From Candidatus Berkelbacteria bacterium (GTDB lineage: Bacteria; Patescibacteriota; UBA1384; XYA2-FULL-43-10; 1-14-0-10-43-13): DNA of 63,833 nt. This document shows, piece after piece, positions 1-39,276 of the stretch. The DNA is taken from NCBI GenBank assembly GCA_037143235.1, contig JBAWZC010000005.1, positions 1-63,833 on the forward strand, in the 5' to 3' direction. Both the position numbers and the translations under genes were made by a program. The notes below the pieces were generated by a model. That model saw nothing but the letters and a program-made list of their open reading frames with translations. It was not told where the DNA came from and made no database searches. Every line of letters starts with the position of its first letter. Position 1 is the first letter of the stretch.

Positions 1-48
1 CTATTGAGCATTTTGCTCAAAAAAAGTTCGAGCTTGAGCGAGAACACA

Positions 49-184
49 CCACCATAATGTATTTACTTGTTCGGAAGCCGCCTCGCGCGAGCCTTTGGCT
101 CGCGCTTCGGCTGGCAAATTGTAGAGTAAATTGTATTGTTTTTCAAAATTCATTTTCAACTTTCCGTCCAGTAAAATGCGGTTC
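49..184. repeat. IR-L: left copy of a 136-bp inverted repeat (reverse complement of 1700..1835)
   Basis: Direct comparison: 49..184 matches the reverse complement of 1700..1835, apart from the 3-nt palindrome centre and one other mismatch. The mirror ORFs 57..281(+) and 1510..1827(-) give near-identical peptides (MYLLVRKPPRAS...). It contains the perfect palindrome GCGCGAGCC-TTT-GGCTCGCGC at 85..105. Confidence 0.9.
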
Positions 185-254
185 CTGTGCGAAGCACAGA
201 AAGTATGAGGAAATCATACTTCAGAGCCGATGGTTTTATCGCCCTTCGGGCGAA

Positions 255-282
255 TTGGCAAGATTTCAATTGTCGGTATAAT
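255..282 (+). promoter_or_regulatory. Sigma70-like promoter of the recombinase gene (TTGGCA-16-TATAAT)
   Basis: TTGGCA at 255..260, a 16-nt spacer, TATAAT at 277..282. SD AAAGGAGGG at 312..320 precedes the ATG at 324. Confidence 0.5.
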
Positions 283-323
283 TTCAGAAAGCATTTAATA
301 GACAAAATATAAAAGGAGGGAAA

Positions 324-1904
324 ATGCTAAAATATTTCATCTATTGTAGGAAGTCGTCAGAAGACGAGGAACGACAAATTTTGTCTATTGAGGCCCAGCT
401 CCAAGAACTTCGAGATTATGCCAAACAAAACTCTCTTTTTGTAATCAAAGAATTTTTTGAAAGTCGAACGGCAAAGGAGCCGGGCCGACCTATATTTAAT
501 CAAATGCTTTCTGAGATAGAAAAAGGCAACGCTTCGGGAATTTTAGCATGGAATCCCGATCGTTTAGCTAGAAATAGTATTGATGGTGGAAAAGTAATTT
601 ATCTTGTAGATACTCAAAAAATTACTTCGCTAAAGTTCCCGACCTTTTGGTTTGACACCACGCCTCAAGGCAAATTTATGCTAAGCGTTGCCTTTGGCCA
701 AGCCAAATATTACACCGACAATTTAAGAGAAAACATTTTGCGTGGAATTAGGCAAAAGTTAAGGCGTGGAGAATTACCGGCAAAAGCTCCTCTCGGTTAT
801 TTTAATGAACCCCGACTAAGAACTATCGAATCAAACAAAACTACTTTTAGCAAAATGAAAAAGATATTGGAGCTTTTTGCCGAGGGCAACCACACCTTAA
901 CTCAAATAAGAGACAAAATGTTTTCTCTTGGCTTGGTTGGCAAAAATGGAGAACCTTTGCATTTATCCACAATAGGCAATATTTTAACCAATCCTTTTTA
1001 CTATGGAATGTTTTTATATCGTGGCGAACTAATGCAAGGTTCTCATAAGCCAATGATTTCCAAAAAACTTTTTGACAAAATTCAAATAGCAATTCACGAC
1101 AATGGCAAGCCCCGCAAAAACATAATCAAAAGAACTCCACTTTTTTACAACTTTGCTCGTTGTGGAGATTGCGGCTATATGATGACAGCAGAGAAGAAAC
1201 GCAAACCTTCAGGAAGAGAATATATTTATTATCGTTGCACCCACAAAAGTAAAGTAAAAAAGTGCAATCAACATAAGTTTTTGCGGGAGGAAAACTTGCA
1301 TGAGCAAATAATTGAACATTGTCAAAAAGTTTCTATTCCTGACGAGTGGAAGGATAAATATCTGGCGAAAGTTGAAGAATGGGAGAATAAACAAAACGAC
1401 TCGTCAGGAATTTTCGCTCAAAATCTTAAAGACAAACTAACTAAAGTAAAAGAGAGAATCAATCGGCTTATTGATTTACATTTAGACGGAGAAATTGAAC
1501 TTGACGAATTTAAACAAAAGAAAAACATCTTAGTTGAACAAAAAGCCGATTTGGAAAGTAAATTAAATGATTTTGAGCGAAAAGGAAATCATTGGCTCGA
1601 ACTCCTAAAATCTTGGATTTTAGATGCCAACCAAGCAGGAAATCTTGCCAATACAAAAAATTTCTTCGGAATGAAGAATTTTTTGAAAACCGTCGGCTCG
1701 AACCGCATTTTACTGGACGGAAATTTGAAAATGAATTTTGAAAAACAATACAATTTACTCTACAATTTGCCAGCCGAAGCGCGAGCCTTTGGCTCGCGCG
1801 AGGCGGCTTCCGAACAAGTAAATACATTATGGTGGAGGTGGAGGGAGTTGCACCCTCGTCCGAAAGGTCAAAAACATAAAATCTACAGGTTTATTCGCAA
1901 TTGA
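324..1904 (+). CDS. Large serine recombinase (resolvase catalytic domain, recombinase domain, zinc ribbon, coiled coil)
   Basis: N-terminus YCRKSSEDEERQILSIEAQ...LAWNPDRLARN is resolvase-like. A CGDCGYMM...YYRC zinc ribbon is followed by a long coiled coil. The last ~70 codons read through IR-R and then antisense into the tmRNA 3' end (WWRWRELHPRPKG...). Confidence 0.85.
   Translation: MLKYFIYCRKSSEDEERQILSIEAQLQELRDYAKQNSLFVIKEFFESRTAKEPGRPIFNQMLSEIEKGNASGILAWNPDRLARNSIDGGKVIYLVDTQKITSLKFPTFWFDTTPQGKFMLSVAFGQAKYYTDNLRENILRGIRQKLRRGELPAKAPLGYFNEPRLRTIESNKTTFSKMKKILELFAEGNHTLTQIRDKMFSLGLVGKNGEPLHLSTIGNILTNPFYYGMFLYRGELMQGSHKPMISKKLFDKIQIAIHDNGKPRKNIIKRTPLFYNFARCGDCGYMMTAEKKRKPSGREYIYYRCTHKSKVKKCNQHKFLREENLHEQIIEHCQKVSIPDEWKDKYLAKVEEWENKQNDSSGIFAQNLKDKLTKVKERINRLIDLHLDGEIELDEFKQKKNILVEQKADLESKLNDFERKGNHWLELLKSWILDANQAGNLANTKNFFGMKNFLKTVGSNRILLDGNLKMNFEKQYNLLYNLPAEARAFGSREAASEQVNTLWWRWRELHPRPKGQKHKIYRFIRN
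1700..1835. repeat. IR-R: right copy of the 136-bp inverted repeat
   Basis: Reverse complement of 49..184. It lies inside the 3' end of the recombinase ORF and includes the last 6 nt (CCACCA) of the tmRNA. Palindrome GCGCGAGCC-TTT-GGCTCGCGC at 1779..1799. Confidence 0.9.
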
Positions 1905-2214
1905 GTTTTTTCGGGTAATAGCTTACACGCGACCAACACACTATTACCTTATCCCTGGTAATTCTTAGCCCTGTGCCCCAAGAAAGAACACAAAACGCAT
2001 CTAAGATATGACGCTCCGATCTCTTCGCTTAGATCAAAGAGGGAACGGCTGCGGGTTTAGGCGACAGCTAGCGAGAAAGTAGGGGCTGCAAAAGCAGTCT
2101 TTACCTTCTCAAAAAGTGATTTTACACTTAGGATTTTGTCAGTTTTTAAAGTGACCAACGCACTTACCTGCAATATGTTTTCAAGGTTCCTTCCGTCGAA
2201 ACTGTATCACCCCC
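1830..2214 (-). ncRNA. ssrA: tmRNA (transfer-messenger RNA)
   Basis: The reverse complement starts GGGGGTGATACAGTTTCGACGG (E. coli: GGGGCUGAUUCUGGAUUCGACGG). It ends TTTCGGACGAGGGTGCAACTCCCTCCACCTCCACCA (E. coli: UUUCGGACGCGGGUUCAACUCCCGCCAGCUCCACCA). Acceptor stem GGGGGUG/CACCUCC has a G3:U pair. The candidate tag frame ends ...GCA GCC CCT ACT TTC TCG CTA GCT GTC GCC TAA (..AAPTFSLAVA*). Confidence 0.9.
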
Positions 2215-2373
2215 AGGTCAATCGAAGATTGACAATGATCAAATATCAAATATCAAATATCAATTATCAATTAATGTTTTAATTATCAATTTAACAATTA
2301 AAACGCTTGCTGGGAAAGACAAGTTCTAAAGCTATGTGATTATACGATTTATGAGAGAAGATGTCAACGATCG

Positions 2374-3649: not shown

Positions 3650-4384
3650 ATGGAAAACATTGAATCACAAATCGAGAACCACCTTCGCGAGGTTAGAAAA
3701 CATCGCAAACTTAGCCAGGAAGACTTGGCTGATGCTTTGGGCATCTCTCGTCAATCAATCATCGCTCTCGAGCAGGGTCGCTCTATGCCATCTCTGCCGT
3801 TGGCTGTTTCGATGTGTAAATATTTCAATACTGCCTTCGAAGACCTTTTCGAATTTGAGCGCGAGATCGAGGAAGAGATTGAGCGATCGTTTTCCGATAA
3901 TAATATAAAAATTATTAATGAGCCGATCACAGGCTCGGGAAAGGAGAAAGAAATGTTGACAATTGAACCGTGGCGACCAATGCGCGAAGCTACATCGCTT
4001 CGAGATGCGATGGATCGTTTGTTTGAAGATAGCGTCATCACTCCGAGTAAATCAGTGGCGATGCCGAAGATCGATATTATGGAAAAAGGCGACCAGATCG
4101 TAGTCAAGGCTGAACTTCCTGGGATGAAAGAGGAAGACATCAGTGTCGAGATCAAAGACAATATTATGACTATTTCTGGCGAGAAGAAAGACGAAGTCGA
4201 GCAAAAGGAAAAAGGCTATTTCTATCGTGAAAGCCATTCTGGTGCTTTTGCCCGAAGTTTTCACTTACCTGCCGAAGTTGTAGCCAGCAAGGCTGACGCT
4301 GAAATGAAGGCTGGTGTTCTCATCATCTCTGTGCCAAAAGTTGAGGAAAAAAAGGCTCAAAAGATCGAGATCAAGAAGAAATAA
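3650..4384 (+). CDS. XRE-family HTH domain fused to an Hsp20/alpha-crystallin small heat-shock domain
   Basis: N-terminus LSQEDLADALGISRQSIIALEQGRSMPSL is a Cro/C1-type HTH. The C-terminus PKIDIMEKGDQIVVKAELPGMKEEDISVEIKDNIMTISGEKK...GAFARSFHLP...GVLIISVPK is an ACD/Hsp20 fold. An internal SD AAGGAG plus an in-frame ATG at 3953 sits at the domain junction. Confidence 0.8.
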   Translation: MENIESQIENHLREVRKHRKLSQEDLADALGISRQSIIALEQGRSMPSLPLAVSMCKYFNTAFEDLFEFEREIEEEIERSFSDNNIKIINEPITGSGKEKEMLTIEPWRPMREATSLRDAMDRLFEDSVITPSKSVAMPKIDIMEKGDQIVVKAELPGMKEEDISVEIKDNIMTISGEKKDEVEQKEKGYFYRESHSGAFARSFHLPAEVVASKADAEMKAGVLIISVPKVEEKKAQKIEIKKK

Positions 4385-5273: not shown

Positions 5274-5350
5274 TGGTGCGCCCAAGAGGACTCGAACCTC
5301 TGACCTCTACAATGTCAATGTAACGCTCTAACCAACTGAGCTATGGGCGC
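5274..5350 (-). tRNA. tRNA-Val (anticodon GAC), CCA encoded
   Basis: The reverse complement GCGCCCATAGCTCAGTTGGTTAGAGCGTTACATTGACATTGTAGAGGTCAGAGGTTCGAGTCCTCTTGGGCGCACCA folds as a cloverleaf. The anticodon loop is TTGACAT. Confidence 0.95.
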
Positions 5351-39202: not shown

Positions 39203-39276
39203 TCCGAGGTCGTCTAATGGCAGGACAGCGGCCTTTGAAGCCGTGAATCATGGTTCGAATCCATGCCCCGGAACCA
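39203..39276 (+). tRNA. tRNA-Gln (anticodon UUG), CCA encoded
   Basis: TCCGAGGTCGTCTAATGGCAGGACAGCGGCCTTTGAAGCCGTGAATCATGGTTCGAATCCATGCCCCGGAACCA. The anticodon loop is CTTTGAA and there is a U1:A72 pair typical of tRNA-Gln. There is one A5:C68 mismatch. Confidence 0.85.

What the first reader, a model, noticed from the sequence alone, without database searches (positions are those of the whole stretch)
1..2232. Large serine recombinase gene running into the tmRNA 3' end and bracketed by 136-bp inverted repeats with a palindromic core
The recombinase ORF (324..1904) overlaps the 3' end of ssrA (1830..2214, minus strand) antisense by 75 nt. tmRNA 3' ends are classic integration sites for genomic islands.

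Unusually, the repeat here is inverted rather than direct. The last 6 nt of tmRNA plus 130 nt downstream (1700..1835) recur inverted at 49..184, upstream of the recombinase promoter. The 1.8-kb recombinase unit is therefore flanked by inverted repeats, and inversion between them would regenerate an intact tmRNA 3' end.

Each repeat holds a perfect 9-3-9 palindrome, GCGCGAGCC-TTT-GGCTCGCGC, at 85..105 and 1779..1799. The central TTT reads the same on the plus strand in both copies although the flanks are inverted. The asymmetric centre is thus in direct orientation, as expected if the palindrome is the crossover core, or if an exchange already happened there.

This could be a self-inverting or self-excising minimal element, the edge of an island extending left of the window, or a fold-back assembly artefact at a contig end.
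Basis: partly seen in the sequence, partly recalled or inferred. Interest (0 to 1): 0.72.

Follow-up and report, generated by a model that had tools for sequence, protein, structure and literature searches.

The report
Serine-integrase island junction at tmRNA
The left end of this window is the integrase end of a small mobile island inserted at the tip of the tmRNA gene of a candidate-phyla-radiation bacterium. The odd inverted repeat around its integrase gene is real and conserved in about 130 related elements, and I found no published description of it.

Summary
The 136-nt inverted repeat (IR) is not an assembly artefact: 127 of 156 related loci carry one, as do 77 of 83 loci with enough flank. 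All are candidate-phyla-radiation (CPR) assemblies, including one complete genome. In 110 of 124 testable loci the large serine recombinase (LSR) gene runs into the 3' end of a convergent tRNA or tmRNA.

Both arms end in the last 6 nt of the target RNA gene (CCACCA here), and that hexamer marks the recombination joint. The right arm plus tmRNA is an attL-type junction. The left arm plus its conserved outer flank ("F") is an intact attP-type site, inverted, inside the island. In relatives, F recurs inverted beyond 1–6.5 kb of cargo, where it joins host DNA as an attR-type junction.

The window therefore shows only the integrase end of an island that continues left of the contig. The attP core lies inside the LSR reading frame, so integration replaces a conserved 15–20-residue tail.

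The 9-3-9 palindrome is not the crossover core. It is not conserved, and its same-strand loop is a hairpin-loop flip found within one locus only here.

Verdict: a new variant of serine-integrase islands. Whether the cassette inverts is untested.

The parts
1..48 (+). Inner 48 nt of the 'F' arm, the conserved outer flank of the left site. It continues at least 86 nt beyond the window to the contig end. It contains GTTCGAGC at 27-34. Read on the minus strand in frame with the left arm, it encodes CVLAQARTFFEQNAQ*, the native C-terminal tail of the recombinase.
   Evidence: The flank is conserved between loci with different target tRNAs. The tail peptide is conserved in 88 of 106 distinct loci, with synonymous Arg and Thr codon changes. 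The F-encoded tail ends real recombinase genes in 21 of 120 homologue clusters.
49..54 (+). CCACCA hexamer of the left site. It is identical to tmRNA nt 71-76 and is the inferred core that holds the crossover dinucleotide.
   Evidence: The hexamer co-varies with the target: CCACCA for Ala/Val/Ile/tmRNA, CAGCCA for Gln, GCTCCA for Gly, CCGCCA for Ser, GGAGCCA for Asn. Arm identity starts here, and F-repeat identity ends here.
55..184 (+). Left 'H' arm. It is an inverted copy of the last 130 nt of the conserved recombinase coding sequence. With F and the hexamer it forms an attP-type site, F-o-H.
   Evidence: Within-locus arm identity averages 98.6%, against 64.4% between loci of the same target group.
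85..105 (+). 9-3-9 palindrome in the left arm, with its loop flipped relative to the right arm.
   Evidence: This is the only hairpin-loop flip between the two arms of one locus among 108 arm pairs. The loop orientation (Phe versus Lys codon) is polymorphic among relatives at least 92% identical.
185..323 (+). Recombinase upstream region. It holds three small hairpins, a promoter-like TTGGCA-16-TATAAT at 255-282, and a GGAGG ribosome-binding site just before the ATG.
   Evidence: fold z = -3.7.
324..1904 (+). Large serine recombinase gene. The conserved part ends at 1835 with Trp-Trp (TGGTGG). Codons 1836-1904 are antisense tmRNA and replace the native tail.
   Evidence: Pfam domains. Nearest solved homologue is the A118/LI integrase C-terminal domain, 4kis. 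Homologues align only to about residue 504. Relatives 92-94% identical carry tmRNA-, tRNA-Ala- or F-derived tails after WW.
1695..1703 (+). GGCTCGAAC (Gly-Ser-Asn) at the inner boundary of the right arm. Its reverse complement is GTTCGAGCC. The motif is constrained at the DNA level.
   Evidence: Identical codons in 94 of 98 loci, against about 3% expected from codon usage.
1700..1835 (+). Right arm: H2 plus the hexamer at 1830-1835. With the tmRNA it forms the attL-type junction, tmRNA-o-H.
1779..1799 (+). 9-3-9 palindrome in the right arm. It codes for AEARAFGSRE.
1830..2214 (-). Intact tmRNA gene. Its last 6 nt are supplied by or shared with the element. The T-arm and acceptor strand form the inferred attB-type half-site.

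Best explanation
Window 1-2214 is the integrase end of a small integrative island inserted at the 3' end of the tmRNA gene of a CPR (Berkelbacteria-like) bacterium by a large serine recombinase (LSR).

**Sites.** Three kinds of site share one core 'o', the last 6 nt of the target RNA gene (CCACCA here).
- The tmRNA T-arm/acceptor joined to element arm H (right arm, 1700-1835) is the attL-type junction.
- F-o-H (window 1-184) is a complete attP-type site kept inside the island, in inverted orientation, upstream of the LSR promoter.
- In relatives, a second inverted F arm lies beyond 1-6.5 kb or more of cargo and joins host DNA (F-o-X'), the attR-type junction.

**What is shown.**
- The architecture is family-wide.
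- Sequence identity between partners breaks at the hexamer.
- F belongs to the element.
- Near-identical LSRs are joined, immediately after Trp-Trp (TGGTGG), to different tRNAs, to tmRNA, or to F.
- The attP core lies inside the LSR reading frame, so integration replaces a conserved 15-20-residue tail with antisense-tRNA sequence.

**What is inferred.**
- The LSR zinc-ribbon domain reads the T-loop-like GTTCGA motif. This motif sits 5 bp further from the core in F than in tRNAs, the attP/attB geometry of A118/LI integrase.
- Strand exchange occurs at tRNA nt 71-72.
- The element supplies nt 73-76, so the tmRNA stays intact.
- The excised form is a circle with two inverted attP copies.
- The long, near-identical arms allow the LSR cassette to invert, either LSR-catalysed at 'o' or by homologous recombination. 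Inversion would re-attach the native tail.
For: **Family-wide architecture**
- Across 156 distinct related loci, 110 of 124 testable have a convergent tRNA or tmRNA at the LSR 3' end. 127 have the IR, including 77 of 83 with enough flank.
- The arms end 6 nt into the tRNA in 67 of 91 loci where this could be measured, and the hexamer co-varies with the target.

**F arm and site geometry**
- The F flank is conserved across different targets. Its GTTCGR motif ends 23 nt from the tRNA-end equivalent in 57 of 72 loci, against 18 nt for the T-loop.
- This 5-bp shift matches the one described for LI integrase attP versus attB (PMC3783163). A118/LI integrase is the nearest solved homologue.

**Island and cargo**
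- An inverted F-plus-hexamer copy, 150-210 nt at 98-100% identity, lies 1.2-6.5 kb away in 19 of 64 loci with at least 2.5 kb of left flank. It is followed by unique DNA, including native tRNA terminators in L027 and L076.
- Cargo includes restriction-modification genes, a toxin-antitoxin antitoxin, a reverse transcriptase and transporters.
- The close tmRNA-linked relative L084 (87.7% nt identity) has an F arm reaching at least 250 nt from the hexamer, with an inverted copy of its distal part at the contig start and about 2 kb of cargo between.
- Five k141 contigs end 134-135 nt left of the hexamer. That is where the 141-mer falls wholly inside F plus hexamer, as expected if that stretch is repeated in each genome.

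**Tail swap**
- The tail C-[VL]-L-x-x-[AIV]-R-T-F-F-[EQ]-x-N is encoded by the reverse complement of F in 88 of 106 loci, with synonymous codon variation.
- The tail terminates real LSR genes in 21 of 120 clusters and in L168, L169 and L170.
- LSRs 92-94% identical carry tmRNA, tRNA-Ala or F tails.

**Other orientations**
- The opposite orientation, with the tRNA next to the promoter-side arm, occurs in L013 and in L063/L145, two retrievals of one contig.
Against: - No site in this window's own genome other than those shown could be read. The attR-type junction is inferred from relatives and from the contig-end position.
- No empty attB, excised circle or pair of orientations at one locus was recovered.
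- About 40 of 64 loci with long left flanks show no second F copy within 3-10 kb. Those islands may simply be larger, but that is assumed.
- The F motif is also protein-coding, so its 5-bp offset could be partly coincidental.
- The window's own tmRNA T-loop is GTGCAA, not GTTCGA.
- The H and X' half-sites show no convincing mirror of the F or T motif.
- Orientation is strongly biased: only 2 distinct reversed loci out of more than 100. This argues against free flipping.
- LSRs are not known to recombine attP with attL-type sites without extra factors.
Confidence: 0.7

Rival explanations
1. Fold-back or chimeric assembly artefact at a contig end. The left arm would be a spurious inverted copy of the recombinase 3' end.
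For: The left arm lies 135-270 nt from the end of a MEGAHIT contig. Inverted repeats do confuse assemblers, and L104 looks like such a fold-back through the F repeat.
Against: The same IR, with the same inner and outer boundaries, is present in 127 loci from many projects and assemblers. These include mid-contig positions in 100-800 kb contigs and a complete genome, L017. The window's arms differ at 4 positions. The flank outside the left arm is conserved and coding.
Confidence: 0.02
2. A self-contained 1.8-kb insertion sequence (49-1835) with 136-bp terminal inverted repeats and an LSR transposase. It would insert by itself next to tRNA ends, and the repeats would be its ends.
For: Many homologues sit on 1.6-2.2 kb contigs of about the unit's size. 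The IR brackets exactly one gene with its promoter. LSR transposases are known, such as TnpX, whose N-terminal domain is a weak PDB hit.
Against: There is no target-site duplication. The sequence outside the left arm (F, at least 45-250 nt) is conserved with the element, not the host, and encodes the LSR tail. Cargo bounded by a second F copy follows in relatives. The short contigs are explained by assembly breaks at the repeats.
Confidence: 0.08
3. The 21-bp palindrome is the recombinase's crossover core, and recombination between the two same-strand copies excises or has rearranged the unit.
For: The two 21-mers are identical direct repeats with an asymmetric centre. Serine-recombinase sites are dyad-symmetric.
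Against: The palindrome is missing or different in most relatives, for example L009, L011 and L014-L016. In relatives with the same palindrome the loop is properly inverted between arms (L004, L005, L170). A loop flip between the arms of one locus is seen only here among 108 arm pairs. Junctions between different partners map to the hexamer about 45 nt away. A hairpin-loop flip by intrastrand template switching explains the observation.
Confidence: 0.03
4. The left arm plus F is a functionless relic. It would be the 3' end of an ancestral inverted duplicate of the recombinase gene, kept similar to the live copy only by gene conversion.
For: The left arm is exactly a copy of the gene's last 45 codons plus tail. 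The inner boundary is identical family-wide, as expected from a single ancestral event. Near-identity of the arms requires gene conversion in any case.
Against: The structure is retained in 93% of loci across LSR subfamilies only 45% identical, and across at least five target specificities. The tail frame is open and conserved in 88 of 106 loci. F is also reused at the far island junction. A neutral relic would be expected to be deleted often in genomes this small.
Confidence: 0.15

Closest known systems
Phage-type large serine integrases (A118/LI, phiC31, Bxb1) with attP x attB -> attL + attR
   Same: Same domain set: Resolvase, Recombinase and zinc ribbon, with homology to the A118/LI C-terminal domain over residues 177-438. 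Short identity between partners. The same motif placed 5 bp further out in the element-side half-site than in the host-side one, as in PMC3783163.
   Different: The target is the 3' end of tRNA or tmRNA genes. The attP core lies inside the integrase reading frame. An intact attP-type copy is retained, inverted, within the integrated element, with 90-190-nt near-identical arms. No recombination directionality factor gene is evident in the 1.8-kb cassette.
Dehalococcoides ssrA-specific genomic islands with the serine recombinase DsiB (PMC3146451)
   Same: A roughly 540-aa serine recombinase gene sits next to the tmRNA gene at the island edge. The islands are mobilizable and cargo-carrying, and they accrete in tandem.
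   Different: The Dehalococcoides islands have 20-bp direct repeats of the ssrA 3' end, with insertion in the T-loop. They carry a six-gene integration module with a second small recombinase, DsiA. No inverted repeats are reported. Here there is a 6-nt overlap at the acceptor end, a single LSR, and the inverted double-site layout.
Tyrosine-integrase islands in tRNA/tmRNA genes (Islander-type)
   Same: The island lies at the 3' end of an intact tRNA or tmRNA gene. The element restores the gene's end. Integrase subfamilies track target identity.
   Different: The enzyme family is different. The Islander paper states that serine integrases were not known to target tRNA genes (PMC4383910). The displaced fragment is only 6 nt, so Islander-type searches would miss these elements.
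Invertible-segment systems (Hin/Gin/Pin) and the yeast 2-micron circle (FLP with inverted FRT repeats)
   Same: The recombinase gene lies inside or next to a segment bracketed by inverted copies of its own site. The inferred two-attP circle has the 2-micron geometry. This comparison rests on my own knowledge.
   Different: The invertases are small serine recombinases with roughly 26-bp sites and an enhancer, and FLP is a tyrosine recombinase. Inversion is not demonstrated here, and orientation is strongly biased.
Integration-dependent immunity of mycobacteriophages such as BPs (Broussard et al. 2013; cited from my own knowledge, not read here)
   Same: attP lies inside a gene, so integration changes that protein's C-terminus.
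   Different: In BPs the affected gene is the repressor and the integrase is a tyrosine recombinase. Here the integrase's own tail is swapped.

Membership tests
Large serine recombinase (serine integrase) family | N-terminal resolvase catalytic domain with the active-site serine | tested here: met
   PF00239 E = 3.6e-20 over residues 5-150, with the YCRKSS motif at residues 7-12.
Large serine recombinase (serine integrase) family | C-terminal recombinase domain plus zinc-ribbon domain with an embedded coiled coil | tested here: met
   PF07508 and PF13408 both hit. Residues 177-438 align to the A118/LI integrase C-terminal domain, 4kis/6dnw. The coiled coil is inferred from that alignment only.
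Large serine recombinase (serine integrase) family | Short att sites with a 2-bp crossover and attP/attB half-sites differing by a 5-bp shift of the zinc-ribbon motif | tested here: inconclusive
   A 5-nt offset of GTTCGR between F and the T-loop holds in most loci and fits PMC3783163. However, the motif is also coding, the other half-sites show no mirror motif, and no biochemistry is available.
Integrative genomic island at a tRNA/tmRNA gene | Intact target gene at one end, and a repeat of its 3' end at the far end with cargo between | tested here: inconclusive
   The tmRNA is intact. The far junction F-CCACCA-host is seen in 19 relatives. In this genome it is implied only by the contig end position, because the contig stops before it.
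Integrative genomic island at a tRNA/tmRNA gene | Tyrosine-family integrase (Islander definition) | tested here: not met
   The only recombinase present is of the serine family.
Insertion sequence / transposon with terminal inverted repeats | The inverted repeats are the element's ends, flanked by host DNA and usually by a target-site duplication | tested here: not met
   The flank outside the left arm is element sequence. No duplication is present.
Hin/Gin-type DNA invertase switch | Small serine recombinase (about 190 aa), short inverted crossover sites of about 26 bp, both orientations present | tested here: not met
   The protein is a 526-aa LSR and the arms are 136 nt. Both orientations at a single locus were not found.
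Dehalococcoides ssrA-GI (DsiB) islands | [quoted passage not shown] | tested here: not met
   Only 6 nt are shared, at the acceptor end. There is a single recombinase gene with no conserved module. Features of that family are taken from PMC3146451. Sequence similarity to DsiB was not tested.

The most novel reading that the evidence does not exclude
The inverted repeat is a built-in directionality switch that needs no excisionase. Because attP lies inside the integrase gene, integration at the tmRNA or tRNA replaces the enzyme's conserved C-terminal tail and locks the island in place. The long, near-identical arms then allow occasional inversion of the cassette, by homologous recombination or by the enzyme itself acting on the internal attP. 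Inversion re-joins the gene to the spare F-encoded tail and re-arms the integrase for excision or for a further attP x tRNA reaction.
Probability: 0.22. Interest if true: 0.82.

Novelty: new variant of a known kind. Interest (0 to 1): 0.64.

Why it matters
**For serine-integrase biology.** Serine integrases were long thought not to use tRNA genes. One Islander paper says so explicitly, and the Dehalococcoides ssrA islands are the exception I could find. This window belongs to a large family, with hundreds of close homologues and 156 loci examined, that targets the last nucleotides of tRNA and tmRNA genes across the candidate phyla radiation. The elements carry restriction-modification, toxin-antitoxin, reverse-transcriptase and transporter cargo. 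They may therefore be a common route of gene flux and defence-island formation in these tiny genomes. Tools that look for long direct tRNA repeats or tyrosine integrases would miss them.

**For mechanism.** The conserved layout offers a testable idea for how a serine integrase might control direction without an accessory factor. The layout combines an attP core inside the integrase reading frame with a spare inverted attP and long homogenised arms.

**For applications.** Integrases whose host-side site is a near-universal tRNA T-arm plus a 6-nt acceptor end could be useful landing-pad enzymes.

**For assembly.** These repeats systematically break CPR assemblies.

Tried and rejected
- **Fold-back artefact.** Rejected after finding the IR in 127 independent loci.
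- **Palindrome as crossover core.** Rejected by arm alignments and the loop-flip census.
- **Both orientations, or empty and occupied sites, at one host locus.** I ran an all-against-all BLAST of host flanks. Only duplicate retrievals and one 90%-identical pair with the same orientation turned up, so this was uninformative.
- **The second contig, and a JGI copy, that encode exactly this recombinase.** The look-up tool hides the second place as redundant.
- **Mirror-image GTTCGA motifs in the H and X' half-sites.** None was convincing.
- **The left flank as a tRNA-like gene.** ARAGORN and Rfam find nothing there. It is better explained as the coding tail plus a binding motif.
- **Outward promoters inside the arms.** Matches exist at 1725-1766 (+) and 159-118 (-), but not above shuffle expectation.
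- **L104, with two identical head-to-head recombinase copies.** Set aside as a probable mis-assembly through the F repeat.
- **Literature.** Seven completed full-text searches found no description of serine recombinases at tRNA or tmRNA genes in CPR/Patescibacteria.
Full report
**1.

- The window carries a 136-nt inverted repeat (IR), 49-184 against 1700-1835, with 132 of 136 positions complementary (BLAST E = 4e-64).
- A perfect 9-3-9 palindrome sits at 85-105 and 1779-1799 and reads the same on the + strand in both copies.
- A full-length tmRNA gene lies on the minus strand at 1830-2214. ARAGORN finds it, and Rfam scores it at 117 bits over model positions 1-374.
- A 526-codon ORF at 324-1904 has Resolvase, Recombinase and Zn_ribbon_recom domains. 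It is a large serine recombinase (LSR) that overlaps the tmRNA 3' end by 75 nt.
- A near-consensus promoter (TTGGCA-16-TATAAT, 255-282) lies between the left arm and the ORF.
- The window begins 86 nt inside a 64,005-nt MEGAHIT contig, so the left arm is 135-270 nt from a contig end.

**2. It is not an artefact; it is a family trait**

- The LSR has thousands of database relatives. The best 120 are 65-100% identical, and where named they come from Berkelbacteria, Parcubacteria, Moranbacteria, Shapirobacteria and similar groups. Many sit on 1.6-2.2 kb contigs.
- I fetched 80 loci from species-representative genomes and 80 from JGI metagenomes. That gave 156 distinct loci.
- In 110 of 124 loci with enough downstream sequence, the LSR 3' end abuts or overlaps the 3' end of a convergent tRNA or tmRNA. 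The counts are Gln 46, Ala 21, Gly 18, Ser 11, tmRNA 4, Glu 3, Asn 3, Val 2, Ile 1 and Asp 1.
- An IR bracketing the LSR gene is present in 127 loci, and in 77 of 83 with enough flank on both sides.
- These include positions deep inside 100-800 kb contigs and a complete Woesebacteria genome (L017).
- Arms within a locus average 98.6% identity, and 48 of 108 pairs are perfect. Right arms of different loci in the same target group average 64%. The arms therefore evolve in concert.

**3. Anatomy of the sites**

- The outer end of both arms coincides with the last nucleotides of the target gene. The overlap is 6 nt in 67 of 91 loci where it could be measured.
- This hexamer co-varies with the target: CCACCA for tRNA-Ala, Val, Ile and tmRNA; CAGCCA for Gln; GCTCCA for Gly; CCGCCA for Ser; GGAGCCA for Asn.
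- This explains why close relatives of this LSR use tRNA-Ala, tRNA-Val, tRNA-Glu (L086, whose gene also ends CCACCA) and tmRNA interchangeably.
- Outside the left arm the sequence is not host DNA. A flank I call F is conserved between loci that have different targets on the other side. In the window, F ends …AAAAAGTTCGAGCTTGAGCGAGAACACA|CCACCA.
- F carries a GTTCGR motif ending 23 nt from the position equivalent to the tRNA 3' end in 57 of 72 distinct loci. The tRNA T-loop GTTCRA ends 18 nt away.
- A 5-bp outward shift of the zinc-ribbon-domain motif is what distinguishes attP from attB half-sites of LI/A118 integrase (PMC3783163). That integrase is the closest solved homologue of this protein (4kis, residues 177-438).
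- Laying that geometry on these sites puts the crossover dinucleotide at the first two bases of the hexamer, tRNA positions 71-72. This is inference, with two caveats. The F motif is also coding (section 5). The window's tmRNA T-loop reads GTGCAA.

**4. The island continues to the left**

- In 19 of 64 loci with at least 2.5 kb of left flank, F plus the hexamer (150-210 nt, mostly 98-100% identical) recurs inverted 1.2-6.5 kb further left.
- Identity stops at the hexamer. What follows is unique DNA, and in L027 and L076 it is a hairpin plus T-run in the tRNA-sense direction, a former tRNA terminator.
- Each such island therefore has three sites sharing one core 'o':
  - tRNA-o-H, attL-type, next to the LSR 3' end.
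  - F-o-X', attR-type, at the far end.
  - F-o-H, an intact attP-type site between cargo and LSR promoter, inverted relative to both.
- Cargo is variable and accessory:
  - LysE-type and ABC transporters.
  - Restriction-modification genes.
  - A nucleotidyltransferase.
  - PLD nucleases.
  - A SocA/Panacea antitoxin.
  - A reverse transcriptase.
- L084, a tmRNA-linked relative 87.7% identical in DNA to the window's element, has an F arm reaching at least 250 nt from the hexamer. An inverted copy of its distal 74 nt sits at the contig start, with about 2 kb of cargo between.
- For the window itself the far junction is off the contig, but the contig end is informative. The window's contig and four other k=141 MEGAHIT contigs from sister assemblies all begin 134-135 nt left of the hexamer.
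- That is where a 141-mer falls wholly, or in this contig all but one base, inside F plus hexamer. A de Bruijn unitig must stop there if that stretch occurs twice with different continuations.
- The F arms of these contigs differ from one another, so the second copy must belong to the same element.

**5. attP lies inside the integrase gene**

- The conserved part of the protein ends in Trp-Trp, encoded by TGGTGG, the reverse complement of the hexamer.
- After it the tails differ. Some are antisense tRNA or tmRNA (here RWRELHPRPKGQKHKIYRFIRN). Others are a conserved peptide, C-[VL]-L-x-x-[AIV]-R-T-[FY]-[FY]-[EQK]-x-N…, encoded by the reverse complement of F.
- That reading frame, running from the left arm through the hexamer into F, is open and conserved in 88 of 106 distinct loci. 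Codon variation is synonymous: Arg CGA 68, AGA 12, CGG 6; Thr ACT 73, ACC 10, ACG 3, ACA 2. In the window it is the minus-strand ORF 1-159, ending …NTLWWCVLAQARTFFEQNAQ*.
- The F-encoded tail terminates real LSR genes in 21 of the 120 closest clusters. It also does so in L168, L169 and L170, where the cassette has F on both sides.
- Within the window's own 90% cluster, proteins 92-94% identical to it carry tmRNA-, tRNA-Ala- or F-derived tails. This shows recent exchange of partners exactly at TGGTGG.
- Integration therefore replaces the last 15-20 residues of the enzyme.
- A further DNA-level constraint sits at the inner arm boundary. Gly-Ser-Asn is encoded GGCTCGAAC (reverse complement GTTCGAGCC) in 94 of 98 loci, against about 3% expected from codon usage. 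Its role is unknown.

**6. The palindrome**

- GC-rich hairpins occur in many H arms but differ in sequence and position, and several relatives have none there.
- Where the very same palindrome exists (L004, L005, L170), its loop is inverted between arms, as the flanks are.
- A loop that differs between the two arms of one locus is seen only in the window among 108 arm pairs.
- Among close relatives both loop orientations occur in the live gene, giving Phe or Lys at that codon.
- This is the signature of hairpin-loop flipping by intrastrand template switching, not of a crossover site.

**7. How it most likely works**

*Shown*
- The element family is mobile among tRNA and tmRNA 3' ends.
- Junctions fall at the hexamer.
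- The tmRNA stays intact because the element carries the same 6 nt.
- The integrase tail is swapped on integration.
- An inverted attP-type copy is conserved.

*Inferred*
- The LSR recognises the T-arm as an attB-type half-site and F as an attP-type half-site, with strand exchange at nt 71-72.
- The downstream host half-site is essentially unconstrained. This would also allow new elements to integrate at an occupied tRNA and give tandem arrays. Such arrays would explain cassettes whose 3' end meets another F (L111, L142, L168, L169).
- Topologically the integrated structure equals insertion of a circle with two inverted attP copies.
- The rare opposite orientation (L013, and L063/L145 which are one contig) and the loci with tRNA copies on both sides (L115, L121) fit use of either copy, or recombination of the internal attP with a tRNA.

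*Unsettled*
- Why the second copy is kept is open.
- The hypothesis I favour, at roughly one chance in four, runs as follows. The tail swap locks the integrated state. Inversion of the cassette, through the long near-identical arms or at the core, then restores the native gene.
- This would explain the arm length and homogenisation, the conserved but usually unattached tail, and the strong bias towards the orientation seen in the window.

**8. Comparison with known systems**

- The enzyme meets the defining domain features of the large serine recombinase family.
- It is not an Islander-type island, which requires a tyrosine integrase and a long direct repeat.
- It is not a Hin-type switch, and not an insertion sequence bounded by terminal inverted repeats.
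- The nearest published case is the Dehalococcoides ssrA islands with DsiB (PMC3146451). Those differ in their 20-bp direct repeats, T-loop insertion point, multi-gene integration module and lack of inverted repeats.
- The Islander paper states that serine integrases were not known to target tRNA genes (PMC4383910).
- Seven completed full-text searches found nothing on such elements in the candidate phyla radiation. That library omits most subscription-journal papers.

**9. Limits**

- Everything about mechanism is comparative inference from assemblies. No reads, no closed genome for this organism and no biochemistry were available.
- About 40 of 64 long-flank loci show no far junction within reach.
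- Six relatives at tRNA-Glu, Asp, Gln or Ala lack the IR altogether. The architecture is therefore a feature of a large clade, not of every tRNA-linked LSR.

Noticed in passing
L084:2060-2105; also L004, L033, L065, L072 (C-rich loop) and L027, L035, L169, L170 (G-rich loop), 100-220 nt from the hexamer inside F arms: A GC-stem hairpin with a roughly 20-nt C-rich loop (…TTCCTCCCCAAACCCCTCC…) recurs in the F arms of many islands. It appears with the loop in either orientation in different loci. Function unknown; it could be a terminator, a protein-binding site or a transfer-related site.
   Followed up: no
window 1695-1703: Gly-Ser-Asn at the inner boundary of the right arm is encoded by GGCTCGAAC in 94 of 98 loci, against about 3% expected from codon usage. 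Its reverse complement, GTTCGAGCC, resembles the F and T-loop motif. This points to a DNA-level function inside the coding sequence.
   Followed up: partly
window 1725-1766 (+) and 159-118 (-): Each arm contains outward-facing promoter-like hexamers (TTGAAA-17/18-TACAAT), though not above shuffle expectation. In 9 of 11 relatives examined the cargo genes are transcribed away from the recombinase cassette, the direction such a promoter would serve.
   Followed up: partly
L104:125-8486: This contig has two identical recombinase copies head-to-head around about 4.5 kb of cargo. It is most likely a fold-back mis-assembly through the 200-nt F repeat. It warns that these repeats can create palindromic chimeras in short-read assemblies.
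   Followed up: partly
L024, L050, L096, L100, L102, L106: These are related recombinases (50-64% identity) next to tRNA-Glu, Asp, Gln or Ala that lack the inverted repeat. Most stop about 50-160 nt before the tRNA. L096 shows a displaced tRNA-Ala 3' fragment as a direct repeat. They may be simpler or ancestral layouts.
   Followed up: partly
L115:9712-11537 and L121:7773-9772: The recombinase cassette is flanked by inverted tRNA-Gln or tRNA-Gly genes on both sides. This is as expected if the internal attP-type site recombined with a second tRNA gene, producing a chromosomal inversion.
   Followed up: no
window 5274-5350 (-) and 39203-39276 (+): tRNA-Val(GAC) ends GCACCA and is followed directly by a strong terminator hairpin. 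tRNA-Gln(TTG) ends GAACCA. Neither matches the hexamers used by the Ala-type or Gln-type elements, and both are unoccupied.
   Followed up: yes
window 2233-2300 and 2339-2367: An A+T-rich run of ATCAAATATCAA-like repeats lies just upstream of the tmRNA 5' end. A perfect consensus promoter (TTGACA-17-TATAAT, minus strand) sits about 125 nt upstream.
   Followed up: no
window 3650-4384 (+): A 244-aa protein fuses an N-terminal HTH_3-type DNA-binding domain to a C-terminal HSP20 (alpha-crystallin) domain, according to the precomputed Pfam hits for the contig.
   Followed up: no
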